A stretch of DNA of 64,000 nucleotides from Escherichia coli O127:H6 str. E2348/69 (GTDB lineage: Bacteria > Pseudomonadota > Gammaproteobacteria > Enterobacterales > Enterobacteriaceae): NCBI RefSeq assembly GCF_000026545.1, contig NC_011601.1. One strand, written 5' to 3'. The position numbers were made by a program. Positions 27,001 through 33,000 of the stretch are shown here, piece after piece (positions within the stretch are counted from its first letter, which is position 1; every line of letters begins with the position of its first letter).

Positions 27001-30000
27001 GCCACCTTTGAAGGCAATATCAACCATGTGGGTGGAGTGATTACCTCCGTTGACGTCACCATTAATGGCGTTAAAATCGGAACGCACAAACATCCAACCC
27101 CACACGGCATGTCTGACACGCCGGTTAATTAAGTGCTGAACACCCTCACCTGATTCTGACCTGTCCATGCTGCCAGACTGGCGGCATGGACCAGACGATT
27201 TCACCTGCAACCGGCGACTACGAACGCCGTCGGATTTATACCCTTCATAACGCGGTTTATCTGCGACTGGCGACGCCGCTTGGCAGTTACTGGGCGGATG
27301 CGTTGCTGGGGTCACGCCTGCACGAGCTGAAGCGGGAAAAAGACGTTTCCCGTGTTCATAAGCTTGCGGCGCAGTATGCCAGCCAGGCACTTCAGCCCCT
27401 GCTCGATGACGGGCGGGCAAAATCCATTACCGTTGACACAAAACCGGGGCAGCGCGGCTGGTTGTTGCTGTTAATCACCGTCACGGATAACGCGGGCACA
27501 CCGCAGACGTTTGAACACCCTGTGAGGATTATGTAATGCCGTTTCCTGTTCCGGGCGTTGCTGAAAACACAGAACGCCAGCTACGTGATATCGCTAACGC
27601 CCTGCCGGGCGAAACCATCGACACCGGCGCTGACAGCGATTACCGCATTCGTGCAAATGCCGTATCCGGCGTGGCGGACGGACTGTATATGCATCAGGGG
27701 TGGATACTCCGTCAGGTGTTTCCTGATACGGCAGACCCTGAATATCTGGAGTTGCACTGCCGCACGCGCAATGTTTTTCGTAAAAAAGCAACGGCCTCAT
27801 CCGGTCCGGCAGTGATTACCGGCACACCCGGTAAGACGCTGCCAGCCGGTGCGGAAATTCGTGGTGAAGGTGTCAGCGTGGCCACCGCAGCAGACTGCAC
27901 CGTCGGTGATGAAGGCAGCGCAGAGGTGACGGTAAAAAGCACTGCCACGGGTGCACAGACGAATGCATCCACGACGCAGACGGCAACGCTGGTCAGCCCA
28001 CCTGAAGGCATCAACAGCACGGTGACGATTAAATCCCTGACCGGCGGAACGGACAGGGAAAGCGACGCCGACCTGCTGGCGCGTTATCTGGATATTCTGC
28101 GCAGGCCGCCCGCTGGCGGTAATAAATATGATTACAAACGCTGGGCGCTGGAAGTGGATGGCGTTACGTCTGCGTATGTGGAGCCGTTGCGTCGTGGACT
28201 GGGGACGGTTGATGTGGCCATTACGTCAGCCAATGACCTCCCTTCGCAGGAACTGATTAATGCCGTGCTGGCACATATTGAGGAAGTCCGCCCGGTGACA
28301 GCGAAGGACACGATGGTGCTGGCCCCGACGAAAAAAGCCGTTGATTTCGTTGTCCGGGTAAAAACCAGTGGTCTTACTGTTGAACAGATAAAACCACAGA
28401 TAACTGAAGTTATCACGGATTTTATGAACCGGCTGGAGCCGGGGCAGGAATTAATTATTTCACAACTGGAAACTCAGATTTCATTAATTTCTGGCATCAG
28501 TGACCGGCGAATTATTATGCCGTCAGATAATGTAAAAGCAGTTGTCAATGAATCCACATGGGAGTGGCTGCGTCCGGGGAATATTGATATCCAGCCATTT
28601 CCCCGGGAGAGTTAATACATGAATACGGTTGATTTATTTCGTGCCATGTTACCACCGGTCAGCTATGACCCGAACGGGAAATATATTTCAGCAGAACTGA
28701 ACGCAGAAGCAGCCATTATGGATGAAGTAAAAGCGTCAGCTGCACGAGTGCTTGCATCTGTCACACCATTTTACGCATCCATGACGCTGTCTGACTGGGA
28801 ACGAGTGTATGGAGTAATACCCCGCGACGGTGCCACACAGCAGGAACGCCGAGAAAATATTCTTATAAAGATGGCTGCAACTGGTGGGTTATCTATCCCT
28901 TATTTTAAACAACTTGCAGCCAGCCTCGGGTACACCATAACAATTACTGAACTTCATCCATTCAGAGCGGGGATAAACCGATGTGGTGATCGTCTCTATA
29001 TAACAGATGCCCGATGGATTTGGCAGGTTAATGTCACAGGAAGCAGAACGCCAGCCTACAGATTCAGAACCGGAGTATCTGCTGCCGGGGAGCCGTTACT
29101 TTCCTTTGGTGCCCCTGTACTGGAAGAAACATTTAAAGACCTTAAACCCGCTTTTACTTATTGCCATTTCACATATAAGGAGGAGCAGTAATGCAAAATC
29201 TGATGCCCCCGATAAATACACCGGATCAATTGTTTCATGATGGTGACCCCACTCAGGGGATAGAAGGAACCCTCGTGACTGCTGGTTATTTAAACAATCA
29301 GCAGGGGGCAACCCGTGATTTACAGCAGGAACTCCTTAATGTTCTTGGTGGTGCACATATTCAACCTGACCCCAAAAAAACGGATCAGCTACTTACCGCG
29401 CTTCGCGCGTTGCTGTTAAGCCGCAAGAATCCGTTTGGCGATATCAAATTGGACGGCACGGTGCAAAAGGCTCTCGAAAACCTTGGTTTGGGAGAAGGTG
29501 CTCCAGCTATTGGCGTTCCGTTCTTCTGGCCGTCCGCCGCAATGCCAGATACCGTAATCGAAAGCTGGTCCGGCATGGTGTTTTTGAAGTTCAACGGCGC
29601 GAAATTCTCTGCCACTGATTACCCTGTGCTGGCAAAAGTGTTTCCTTCGCTGGTATTACCTGAAGCCCGCGGTGACTTCATTCGTATCTGGGATGATGGG
29701 CGAGGGGCGGACAGTGGGCGAGCATTATTAAGCTGGCAGGCAGCAACATCTTTATCGCAATTTGGTGGTAATTATCCAGAAGGGTCCGGCCATGCGATTG
29801 CTGATTACGATGGAATATCAGCACACGAGCCAGGTTTCTCTCGATTTCAGTACACCAGTAACTCAGTAGGAGATGGTGTTAATTTTGTTGCTGTCAGACC
29901 GCGAAATATTGCATTTAACTTTCTGGTGAGGGCTAAATAATGAAACCTGTTTTTGATGAAAATGGACTGGCTACAGTGCCGGGTGATATGCGTTGTTTTT

Positions 30001-33000
30001 ATTATGATGCAGTAACGTCTGAATATACGGGCTGGTCTGATGAATATATTAATACTGGCGTAAGTATGCCCGCCTGTTCCACTGGTATTGACCCGGGCGA
30101 AAACATTCCGGGGCAAGTGGCAGTATTCACGGGTAAGGGATGGAGCCATGAAGAGGACCATCGCAATGAGACTGTTTACTCAATCGAAAATGGCGCAGCT
30201 GTTACAGTGGATTATATCGGTGCCATCAAAGACGGTTATGTCACGCTTTCACCGTTAACGCCATACGATAAATGGGATGGTGAGAAATGGGTGACGGATA
30301 CCGAGGCACAGCATAGCGCCGCAGTAGACGCGGCAGAAGCACAGCGCCAGTTGCTGATTGATGCTGCAATGGCTTCCATTAGTCTGACTCAGCTGAAATT
30401 ACAGGCCGGGCGGAAACTGACGCAGGCAGAAACAACCCGGCTTAACGCTGTGCTGGATTACATTGACGCGGTGACGGCAACAGATACCAGCACCGCGCCG
30501 GATATCAATTGGCCTGCTCCCCCGGAGGCGTAGGCCAGACGGGATTTGATGTATCAACGCGCATCAGCAAGACCCGGTATTTTTTCCATTCAGATAACGC
30601 GGCGGTTTCTTCTGCCGTCGCGATTTCCGCATCAAAAGCATCCTGTCTCCAGACTATTTCCTTATCAGCCATAGAACGCAATACCGTTCTTTTCTGTTCA
30701 GCCTGAATAATCTGTTGTTCAGCGGAGAGTGGCGGGATATCAATCCACGCAGGATTACCATTTTTATCAGCCCCCAGCGTTTTGCCTTCTGGCGCTACGC
30801 CTGTGTAAATTGCCATTGTTTCATCATCAACATCAGCGCCATTTTCAGGCCATGAACCGGCGCTGATATATACATCTTTTAGTGCTTCCGGATAGAAAGA
30901 GCCTTTATAAAATTTATTCATTCTTAATACCCCAACGCGATAAAACAACAATCTTCGGTGCCCTCTCCGGATGGCGACCAGTTCTGAATACTGATATGCG
31001 TTCTGCTGGCAATACGCACATTCATCGCGGCATTGTAGCCAGATGTTCCACGGTTTCCGGTCGCAAACAAACCTGCATAGGGAAAAGCAAATGGTAAGGC
31101 ATATCCAGCATCAACTCCCTTTTGTGTTGCCACCGTTCCCCACTGCAACATAAGTTGCACCGGGTTTCCTGTCGTCGCAATGCATGGAATGTAGATGTAG
31201 CCATTACCTGACATCATTGACCTGAAGCTGTCTAAATCCAGTAACTTCGAGGCATTATCTGCTCCAACATCTCGTGTTGCAGCGGTCCCTAACTGGAGCG
31301 CATTTCGGAAGGCTGATACATCAGAAATATCAGATCCATTAGCCGATTTCTGCATAGCTCCGGAGGCTTTATCTATCGTTTCTCCCAAACCAACGTTTAT
31401 GAAAATGCAGAAATAACGAGCAAATGGCATCATTCCTGCTTTTGTCAGGGTGATCTACCATGTTTATAGGCTATGTACGCGCATCAACAAATGACCAGGA
31501 CACCGATTTACAACGCAATGCGTTGAACTGTGCAGGATATGAGCTGATTTTTTGAAGGTAAATCATCAGCATGAGACTAATAATTTAGCGTCCAATTCTG
31601 GGCTTTTTGGTTGCGCTCTCTCCGCCCAGAATTGTGCGCCAATTAGCCCAGAAAAAAACGCGAAGTTACACACTGCGCTTTCAGCGCTTCAACAGCCTCT
31701 GCACACAGGCGGCGGCCCATATCCGGGCGAGTCAGATAGAGATTTTTGTCGCTAATTTCAGAGCGGACTTCCAGCAAGCCCTGCGCTTTCACCCACTCTT
31801 CCGGCACTTCTTTGAGTACGGTGTCTTTCGAACGAGAGTGATCGGCCAGGAAACGCAGCAACGCCTGGGTACGCGGACGCGGACCAGCACGACCGGTACA
31901 GACGCGAGCCACGGTGCTGCGGCGCAGTTCTGTTAATACGTCTGCGCGATGCGGGTTTTCAACGCCAATCCACGCTTTTGCTTCTGCGGAACCTAAATCC
32001 AGCGCGCAGCTTTCCGAGGTCACCGGTGCTGCACAGGTGGTAGTGGCGCATTTTGCTTCTGACGGCGCGGGGGCCGCTTGTCCCATTGACGCCATCACGC
32101 TGCGTACAATTTCTTCAATCTGTTTTTGATCCATGATGTGTTATCTCCGCGTCATCAGAAGAACAGTGACGGATCGCCCGCCCGTTTGGTCAGGCGACCG
32201 TTTGCCATAATGCCCATGCTTTCCAGCCAGCGTTCAAACTCCGGTGACGGGCGCAGGTTGAGTAACTGACGCACAGTGGCGGTGTCGTGGAAGGCCGTAG
32301 TCTGGTAGTTGAGCATGATGTCATCACCCAGCGGCATCCCCATGATGTAGTTGCAGCCTGCGGTGGCGAGCAGGATCATCAGGTTTTCGTTGAGGTTCTG
32401 GTCAGCGTCAGCGTGGTTGGTGTAGCAGCAGTCACAGCCCATAGAGATGCCGCTCAGCTTGCCCATAAAGTGATCTTCTAAGCCAGCACGGATAATCTGC
32501 CGGTCGTTGTAGAGATACTCTGGCCCAATAAAGCCGACTACGGTGTTGACGATAAACGGATCGTAATGACGTGCCAGCCCGTAGTTACGCGCTTCCATCG
32601 TTACCTGATCTGCGCCGAAGTTAGCGCCCGCCGATAGCGCAGAACCCTGCCCGGTTTCGAAGTAGAGGCAGTTTTCCCCGGCGATACGGTTGAACTCCGC
32701 GCCCACTGCGCGCGCTTCGTCGAGCATCGCCAGCTCTACGCCAAACTCTTTCAGCCCTTTTTCACTGCCGCAGATACTCTGGAAAATCAGCCCGCCCGGC
32801 GCACCGCGACGGATCGCTTCGATCTGGGTGGTGACGTGCGCCAGTACGCAGCCCTGGGTTGGAATATTGAATTTGTCGATCACGCCATAGATGGTATCCA
32901 GCACGCGGCTTAAGTTTTCCACGTCGTCAGTCACCGGGTTAACGCCGATCACCGCATCGCCCACCCCGAAAGAAAGCCCTTCGTAGATTTGCGCGGCGAT

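What the first reader, a model, noticed from the sequence alone, without database searches (positions are those of the whole stretch)
29471..31405. Intact G-segment-like tail-fibre switch that appears locked because its invertase is a pseudogene
Two 26-bp crossover sites in inverted orientation sit inside the fibre gene (29471-29496) and at 31380-31405. Both orientations read ...LGLGE... across the site in frame, so inversion would swap a ~148-aa fibre C-terminus and its Tfa chaperone for an alternative ~152-aa C-terminus and a second Tfa. The adjacent invertase is frameshifted and truncated, so the switch is frozen unless an invertase elsewhere in the genome acts in trans. The constant fibre part is only about 97 residues, an e14-like rather than Mu-like arrangement.
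Basis: partly seen in the sequence, partly recalled or inferred. Interest (0 to 1): 0.6.

Follow-up and report, generated by a model that had tools for sequence, protein, structure and literature searches.

The report
Invertase-less tail-fibre switch that still flips
This is a real invertible tail-fibre switch in a Mu-like prophage of EPEC strain E2348/69 whose own invertase is only a stub, but it is not locked: published read data for this strain show both orientations, most likely flipped by invertases from other prophages in the cell.

Summary
The anatomy is confirmed. Two 26-bp crossover sites lie in inverted orientation at 29471-29496 and 31380-31405. Both orientations read in frame, there are two fibre C-termini with two Tfa chaperones, and the invertase is a 31-codon stub.

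The window is EPEC E2348/69, NC_011601.1 2720001-2784000. The switch sits at the right end of a ~35.7-kb Mu-like transposable prophage inserted in eutC. Both sites are identical, 26 of 26, to the e14 P-segment sites of K-12.

The "locked" reading is wrong. Goldberg et al. 2014 (Genome Med 6:112, Table S1) measured this locus, NC_011601.1 2749478-2751398, at 60 ± 8 % forward in four single-colony cultures, with PCR validation. Two intact Pin-family invertases sit in P2-like prophages of the same chromosome, next to near-identical sites.

The same stub fused to the same phage end occurs in 16 other E. coli strains, at 13 or more insertion sites. Three cassette pairs occur in both orientations, one in strains whose sequenced flanks are identical. 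The stub still covers the region homologous to the Fis enhancer inside hin and gin.

This is a known kind of switch, already reported as phase-variable. The modest new point is a lineage-wide, non-autonomous design.

The parts
27536..28615 (+). Baseplate J/gp47-family gene of the Mu-like prophage
   Evidence: RefSeq annotation of the identical E2348/69 record
28619..29191 (+). YmfQ / Mu gp48-like baseplate wedge gene
   Evidence: Annotation. 26 % identical to e14 YmfQ, E = 6e-13
29191..29940 (+). Tail-fibre gene in the orientation present in the window (249 aa). The constant part is 29191-29484 and the variable 'A' tail is 29485-29937
   Evidence: ORF and translation. PHROGs tail fibre / tail collar fibre, E = 1.5e-55
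29471..29496 (+). Left 26-bp crossover site, with core TT at 29483-29484, inside fibre codon 98
   Evidence: Identical 26/26 to the left e14 site
29485..31391 (.). Invertible segment. The published inversion coordinates, 2749478-2751398 in NC_011601.1, correspond to window 29478-31398
   Evidence: found as an exact reverse complement in other lysogens. (Goldberg 2014 Table S1)
29940..30533 (+). Tfa chaperone for the A tail (197 aa, TfaE-like)
   Evidence: PHROG_105 tail fibre assembly, E = 1.7e-82. Annotation
30505..30921 (-). Second Tfa chaperone (138 aa, TfaP-like). It converges on the first Tfa gene and overlaps it by 29 bp
   Evidence: PHROG_188, E = 5.4e-43. Annotation
30924..31433 (-). 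Alternative fibre C-terminus 'B' (gp53-like domain). The 151 aa after LGLGE become the fibre tail after inversion. As it stands it is also a free-standing 169-aa ORF with its own ATG, the counterpart of e14 stfE
   Evidence: Annotated as a gp53-like domain protein. Expressed as the fibre tail in tcmA_3 and E423
31380..31405 (+). Right 26-bp crossover site, with core AA at 31392-31393
   Evidence: Identical 26/26 to the right e14 site
31460..31570 (+). Invertase stub. It has 31 codons and then TGA at 31553-31555. Homology to intact Pin/Gin genes runs to 31570, about codon 37, with +1 and +2 indels
   Evidence: PGAP marks it as a pseudogene lacking its C-terminus
31481..31544 (.). Putative recombinational enhancer, inferred by homology. 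There are two Fis-core-like 15-mers, GCATCAACAAATGAC (31481-31495) and GTGCAGGATATGAGC (31530-31544), with centres 49 bp apart and GATTTACAACGCAATG between them. The proximal core lies about 96 bp from the centre of the right site
   Evidence: Description of the Hin enhancer in eLife 2013 e01211
31571..31670 (+). Right end of the transposable prophage, ending ...GAAGTTACA-3', with repeated (A/T)TTCTGGGC motifs that also occur at the left end
   Evidence: The same end abuts unrelated host DNA in 14 other loci
31671..32134 (-). 5' fragment of eutC, cut by the prophage insertion. The 3' fragment lies about 35.7 kb upstream, outside the window

Best explanation
The feature is an e14-type (P-segment) invertible tail-fibre module at the extreme right end of a Mu-like transposable prophage in EPEC E2348/69.

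**What inversion does.** Inversion between the two 26-bp sites joins the 98-aa constant fibre N-terminus to one of two receptor-binding tails. It also brings the matching Tfa chaperone into the expressed orientation.

**What the phage carries.** It has no working invertase. It keeps only the cis elements: both crossover sites, and the first ~111 nt of an invertase gene. By homology, that stretch contains the Fis-dependent enhancer.

**Who catalyses the flip.** Inversion is carried out in trans by Pin/Gin-family invertases of co-resident prophages. In E2348/69 the candidates are two intact invertases in P2-like prophages. The switch flips at a high rate, about 60:40 in colony-derived cultures.

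**Shown.** The anatomy, inversion in this strain, inversion in related lysogens, the presence of intact invertases elsewhere, and the lineage-wide stub.

**Inferred.** Which invertase acts, and that the stub works as an enhancer.
For: **Inversion in this strain.** Goldberg et al. 2014 Table S1 lists NC_011601.1 2749478-2751398, labelled 'Mu', at 60 ± 8 % forward in four colonies, with IR AAACCTTGGTTTGGGAGAA and PCR validation. These coordinates equal window 29478-31398, the repeat found.

**Inversion in relatives.**
- Sixteen other strains carry the same stub and phage end (97.8-99.6 % identical in 13 of them, 92.6-93.0 % in 210221272 and the two OkiPb strains) at 13 or more different insertion sites.
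- The segment is the exact reverse complement between MEI148-20EC and 20KM0223N. It is 1874 bp long, and the sequenced flanks show 0 mismatches in 2121 + 3278 nt at the same insertion site.
- The same holds between GPEC349-628 and GPEC1176 (1825 bp, 100 %).
- E2348/69 differs from tcmA_3 and E423 by inversion of a 1911-bp segment that is 99.7-99.8 % identical.
- Both orientations give intact fibre ORFs. Across the 16 loci examined (one per strain: E2348/69 plus 15 relatives), 9 have the A tail and 7 the B tail in the expressed position.

**Trans invertases.**
- The E2348/69 chromosome has three further matches to the 5' part of the invertase gene and three to the 3' part.
- Two were located and are full length. 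One is 199 aa and 82 % identical to PinE. The other is 192 aa and 79 % identical. Both sit beside sites such as TTCTCCCAAACC AA CGTTTAAGAAAA.
- Both in-situ flipping pairs also have at least one other invertase-like locus.
- There is a precedent for cross-prophage action: PinQ of Qin inverts the e14 P segment.

**Sites and enhancer.**
- Both sites are identical to those of e14.
- The stub aligns with the gin and hin 5' regions across both Fis cores.
- The Hin enhancer is 65 bp long and lies about 100 bp from hix, and the Gin enhancer lies within the invertase gene.
Against: - No experiment identifies which invertase acts on this locus.
- The third invertase-like locus of E2348/69 was not located.
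- Enhancer function of the stub rests on homology only.
- The junction lies 26 nt past the distal Fis core, which could be chance rather than selection.
- All three E2348/69 assemblies show the same orientation. This is only weakly informative, because assemblers report the majority state.
Confidence: 0.8

Rival explanations
1. The switch is frozen in one orientation because the local invertase is a pseudogene, so it is a decaying relic.
For: The invertase really is a 31-codon stub. All three E2348/69 assemblies show one orientation.
Against: Read data for this strain show 60 ± 8 % forward with PCR validation. Identical segments occur in both orientations in related lysogens that carry the same stub, including a pair at the same insertion site. 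Intact invertases are present in the same chromosome.
Confidence: 0.03
2. Inversion happens through general (RecA) homologous recombination between the 19-bp inverted repeats, not through site-specific recombination.
For: The arms are identical over 18-19 nt, so the junction sequence cannot tell the two routes apart.
Against: Nineteen base pairs is shorter than the homology RecA normally needs (established knowledge). By the paper's model, reaching even 10 % reverse within one colony needs a flipping rate above about 0.5 % of the growth rate, far above mutation rates, and the observed fraction is about 40 %. The repeats are exact copies of the e14 sites, which PinE and PinQ invert. Every segment boundary falls exactly at these sites.
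Confidence: 0.04
3. The module was captured already truncated and the stub has no function. The switch flips without a local enhancer, using a remote enhancer or enhancer-independent invertases.
For: Sister Mu-like phages have the same baseplate genes and right end but a plain long fibre gene, with no invertible module and no invertase. That fits capture of a foreign module whose right junction fell inside the invertase gene. Enhancers can act over many kilobases.
Against: The nearest other invertase genes, and any enhancers inside them, are about 228 kb and about 857 kb away. The stub covers the whole enhancer-homologous region with both G...C Fis cores intact. It is conserved even in the 92-93 % diverged members.
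Confidence: 0.13

Closest known systems
Invertible P segment of the e14 element of E. coli K-12 (stfP/tfaP/tfaE/stfE/pinE)
   Same: Both 26-bp crossover sites are identical, 26 of 26. The gene order matches: ymfQ, fibre, tfa, tfa', alternative C-terminus, invertase 5' end. The constant part is about 100 aa and ends ...[36 protein letters not shown]. The stretch from the right site into the invertase 5' end is about 90 % identical. Both are phase-variable at roughly 50:50 in colonies: 51 ± 6 % for e14 against 60 ± 8 % here.
   Different: e14 has an intact 184-aa PinE, whereas here only 31 codons remain. The host element here is a Mu-like transposable phage, not the icd-integrated e14. The variable tails differ. 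The first ~60 aa of the constant part are diverged (54 % identity over 90 aa).
G segment / Gin of bacteriophage Mu
   Same: The position in the genome is the same: after the baseplate genes gp47/gp48, near the right end of a transposable phage. The logic is the same: a constant fibre part fused to one of two tails, each with its own chaperone. The invertase 5' region and the spacing from site to start codon align.
   Different: Mu has an intact gin followed by com/mom before its right end, and a constant part of about 169 aa. Here there is no gin body and no mom, and the phage end follows the stub directly.
Cross-prophage inversion: PinQ of Qin acting on the e14 P segment (Kirigo et al., NAR 2025), and, from the reviewer's own knowledge, e14 Pin complementing gin-deficient Mu (Plasterk et al. 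1983)
   Same: An invertase encoded in one prophage flips a fibre segment in another. That is the mechanism proposed here.
   Different: In those cases the target element still has, or originally had, its own invertase. Here the whole natural phage clade lacks one.
Invertible fibre loci of the two P2-like prophages of E2348/69
   Same: They are in the same chromosome, have the same half-site TTC(T/C)CCCAAACC with an AA core and the same cassette families, and are also phase-variable.
   Different: They carry intact invertases of 199 and 192 aa. One of them has three repeats and four variants.

Membership tests
Hin/Gin/Cin/Pin-type invertible tail-fibre segment (e14 P-segment type) | Two 26-bp crossover sites in inverted orientation with matching 2-bp cores | tested here: met
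   The sites match at 21 of 26 positions and both cores are TT in the same polarity. Each is identical 26/26 to an e14 site. No shuffle gave two matches.
Hin/Gin/Cin/Pin-type invertible tail-fibre segment (e14 P-segment type) | A functional serine invertase gene next to the segment | tested here: not met
   Only 31 codons remain before a stop. Homology ends at about codon 37, and the phage end follows.
Hin/Gin/Cin/Pin-type invertible tail-fibre segment (e14 P-segment type) | A cis-acting Fis-dependent enhancer about 100 bp from one site | tested here: inconclusive
   A homologous region with two Fis-core-like 15-mers lies about 96 bp from the right site (criteria). Function was not tested.
Hin/Gin/Cin/Pin-type invertible tail-fibre segment (e14 P-segment type) | The segment is actually found in both orientations | tested here: met
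   Published result for this strain: 60 ± 8 % forward. Exact reverse-complement segments occur in related lysogens.
Hin/Gin/Cin/Pin-type invertible tail-fibre segment (e14 P-segment type) | Inversion swaps in-frame fibre C-termini and their Tfa chaperones | tested here: met
   Fibres of 249 and 253 aa. Both forms occur as intact ORFs in nature. The Tfa and fibre families are confirmed.
Mu G segment proper | Intact gin, followed by com/mom, and a constant part (Sc) of about 169 aa | tested here: not met
   Comparison with Mu NC_000929. Here the constant part is about 98 aa, there is no gin body and there is no mom.
Mu-like transposable prophage | MuA/MuB-type transposition genes, Mor, and Mu-type head and tail genes | tested here: met
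   RefSeq annotation lists a Mu transposase C-terminal domain protein, an AAA ATPase, Mor, gpT-like major head protein, gp46/gp47 and others.
Mu-like transposable prophage | Insertion at many unrelated sites with a conserved end sequence | tested here: met
   The same ...GAAGTTACA end abuts eutC, yeiP, phn, melA, sstT, mhpT, scpC, pta, hyfB, ydcA and other flanks. The length of the target duplication in eutC is ambiguous at 4-5 bp.

The most novel reading that the evidence does not exclude
The invertase-less layout may be the working design of a whole clade of transposable phages, not a defect. On this reading the clade keeps only the cis parts of the switch: two pix-type sites, plus the enhancer inside a minimal invertase stub. 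It leaves catalysis to Pin-family invertases of whatever other prophages share the cell. The phage's host-range bet-hedging would then depend on the lysogen's other prophages. The switch should be truly locked in hosts without such an invertase; tcmA_3, whose chromosome shows no other invertase-like sequence, is a candidate.
Probability: 0.5. Interest if true: 0.45.

Novelty: already known. Interest (0 to 1): 0.27.

Why it matters
The switch belongs to a textbook class, and this exact locus was already reported as phase-variable in E2348/69. As a discovery it is therefore ordinary.

What matters is the correction. A pseudogenised local invertase does not mean a frozen switch, because Pin-family invertases act across prophages.

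The comparative result adds a modest point. An actively transposing phage clade carries a non-autonomous switch, and the short invertase remnant coincides with the enhancer region. This gives a natural test case for the cis requirement of the Fis enhancer. It also shows how prophages in one cell can depend on each other.

Tried and rejected
**Locating the other invertases by similarity search.**
- The tool lists only the best place per record, so other copies in E2348/69 do not appear directly.
- I obtained copy counts instead, using queries that rank E2348/69 first. One was a chimeric query made of the eutC junction plus an invertase 3' part.

**Guessing prophage positions.**
- LT827011 790-840 kb contains no prophage.
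- The lambda-like PP2 at 730-772 kb has no invertase.

**Literature look-ups that failed or did not help.**
- The Iguchi 2009 genome paper is not held.
- Two E2348/69 papers gave prophage names but no coordinates.
- A search for 'E2348C' with 'invertase' found nothing.

**Other dead ends.**
- Phage vB_EcoM-611R5, the best phage-database hit, is not a relative of this clade and has only a partial invertase.
- NCBIfam gave no hits for the fibre, the Tfa proteins or the stub.
- Rfam found nothing at 28500-32500.
- The exact length of the target-site duplication could not be fixed because of a short repeat at the junction.
- The third invertase-like locus of E2348/69 was not found.
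Full report
**Observation**

- The left site at 29471-29496 is CTCTCGAAAACC TT GGTTTGGGAGAA.
- The right site at 31380-31405 is TTCTCCCAAACC AA CGTTTATGAAAA.
- The two match at 21 of 26 positions in inverted orientation and share the same core polarity.
- The 19-nt arm occurs twice in the window and never in 100 shuffles.

The fibre gene at 29191-29940 encodes 249 aa. Inverting the DNA between the cores in silico gives an uninterrupted 253-aa fibre. The crossover lies in codon 98, and the two variable tails are 147 and 151 aa.

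Two convergent Tfa genes lie inside the segment, at 29940-30533 (+) and 30505-30921 (-). The alternative tail is at 30924-31433 (-). PHROGs assigns these to tail-fibre and tail-fibre-assembly families.

The invertase ORF starting at 31460 stops after 31 codons. Aligned with an intact 198-aa invertase from strain 32-4, it carries a +1 T and a +2 indel, and homology ends at 31570.

**Context**

The window is 100 % identical to three assemblies of EPEC O127:H6 E2348/69. The switch is the last module of a prophage of about 35.7 kb with Mu-type genes. These include a repressor, a Mu-type transposase, an AAA ATPase, Mor, a gpT-like head protein, sheath, tape measure and gp46/gp47.

The prophage splits eutC. 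Its right end is ...GAAGTTACA at 31670. Motifs of the form (A/T)TTCTGGGC recur at both ends.

Both crossover sites are identical, 26 of 26, to those of the e14 P segment in K-12. The last ~40 aa of the constant fibre part and the stretch from the right site to the invertase start are also e14-like. In Mu itself the constant part is about 169 aa, and gin, com and mom precede the end.

**The stub is a lineage trait, not local decay**

The stub fused to the phage end (window 31399-31668) occurs in 16 other E. coli strains. It is 97.8-99.6 % identical in 13 of them and 92.6-93.0 % in 210221272 and the two OkiPb strains.

All carry the same frameshift and the same junction. Each copy abuts different host DNA, including yeiP, phn, melA, sstT, mhpT, scpC, pta, hyfB and ydcA. 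This clade has therefore kept transposing while carrying only the stub.

Sister phages have the same baseplate genes and a 92 % similar right end. They carry a plain long fibre gene and no invertible module. This suggests the module was captured from an e14- or P2-like donor, with its right junction falling inside the invertase gene. That origin is inference.

**The switch flips in relatives**

I compared the segments between the two sites in 16 stub-bearing prophages.
- MEI148-20EC and 20KM0223N share one insertion site. Their sequenced flanks have 0 mismatches over 2121 + 3278 nt. Their 1874-bp segments are exact reverse complements.
- GPEC349-628 and GPEC1176 show the same pattern (1825 bp, 100 % identical, same flank start).
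- E2348/69 differs from tcmA_3 and E423 by inversion of a 1911-bp segment that is 99.7-99.8 % identical.

Both orientations give intact fibre ORFs. The A-type tail is expressed in 9 strains and the B-type tail in 7.

**The switch flips in this strain**

Goldberg et al. 2014 (Genome Med 6:112) sequenced single-colony cultures of E2348/69. [quoted passage not shown]

Their Table S1 gives NC_011601.1 2749478-2751398, four colonies, 60 ± 8 % forward, and IR AAACCTTGGTTTGGGAGAA. Every reported PV in the paper was validated by PCR.

These coordinates equal window 29478-31398, the repeat pair found. The window is therefore NC_011601.1 2720001-2784000. The switch is not locked.

**Where the invertase comes from**

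Queries built so that E2348/69 ranks first show three further chromosomal matches to the invertase 5' 113 nt. They show three further matches to codons 40-198. Goldberg's table pointed to two P2-like prophage loci, and I fetched both.
- One has an intact 199-aa invertase at LT827011 1852976-1853575. It is 82 % identical to PinE.
- The other has an intact 192-aa invertase at 2938747-2939325. It is 79 % identical to PinE.
- Both sit beside sites such as TTCTCCCAAACC AA CGTTTAAGAAAA.

The third locus was not found. Cross-prophage action has a direct precedent, because PinQ of Qin inverts the e14 P segment. Which enzyme acts on the Mu-like locus is inference.

**The stub as enhancer**

The Hin enhancer is 65 bp long, has a Fis site at each end and lies about 100 bp from hix. 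The Gin enhancer lies within the invertase gene.

It has GCATCAACAAATGAC at 31481-31495 and GTGCAGGATATGAGC at 31530-31544, with GATTTACAACGCAATG between them. The proximal core lies about 96 bp from the centre of the right site.

The frameshift and the truncation both fall downstream of this region. So the phage appears to keep every cis element of the switch and none of the enzyme. This is homology-based inference, at about 0.6 confidence.

**Verdict**

The feature belongs to a textbook class and was already published as phase-variable in this strain. The modest new point is that the switch is non-autonomous across a whole transposing phage clade, and that the stub coincides with the enhancer region.

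Noticed in passing
window 31671-32134, and 33528 onward (LT827011 2712741-2715704): The eut operon is broken twice in E2348/69. eutC is split by the Mu-like prophage, and eutA is split by an IS4-like ISEc13 element. Ethanolamine utilisation is presumably lost.
   Followed up: partly
window 29478-31398; hits H6-H9: The invertible segment alone, bounded exactly by the two sites, is 97-99.7 % identical in strains ES4 and WCHEC005784, which were not among the stub-bearing records. In the P2-like prophage of strain 32-4 the segment plus ~170 nt of the adjacent invertase region is ~96 % identical and the flanks differ. The segment appears to move between phage types as a cassette.
   Followed up: partly
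L016 (strain 47-1826) 1664-4003: This stub-bearing prophage has a third crossover-like site (TTCCCCCAAACC AA CGTTTTCATGCT at 3539) and two silent tail cassettes. It is a multi-cassette version, like the three-repeat P2 locus of E2348/69.
   Followed up: no
window 30924-31433 (-): The silent cassette is a free-standing 169-aa ORF with its own ATG upstream of the right site, the counterpart of e14 stfE. In K-12 the chimeric StfE2 made by inversion was reported to block phage T2 adsorption. A similar side function here was not tested.
   Followed up: no
window 30505-30533: The two convergent Tfa genes overlap by 29 bp at their 3' ends. Both end in a WP.PP motif, read from opposite strands.
   Followed up: no
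window 31581-31668; L005 9159-9260: Nested inverted repeats at the phage right end (I2 and I7) contain (A/T)TTCTGGGC(GGA) motifs. These recur at the left end and are probably transposase-binding sites. The eutC target duplication is 4 or 5 bp (CACT or ACACT) and cannot be fixed by 1 nt.
   Followed up: partly
row for strain tcmA_3 (NZ_CP059835.1): The tcmA_3 chromosome has no invertase-like sequence other than the stub. It may be a natural case where this switch really is locked. Its plasmids were not checked.
   Followed up: no
window 31556: E2348/69 has A at this position (GAAGGT), where every other stub-bearing prophage examined has G. It is a strain-specific substitution just after the stop codon.
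   Followed up: no
L012 (strain 160-11H1) 1850-4032: In this stub-bearing prophage the segment looks degraded. Both tfa genes are annotated as frameshifted, and the expressed and silent tails are chimeric or short (110 and 84 aa).
   Followed up: no
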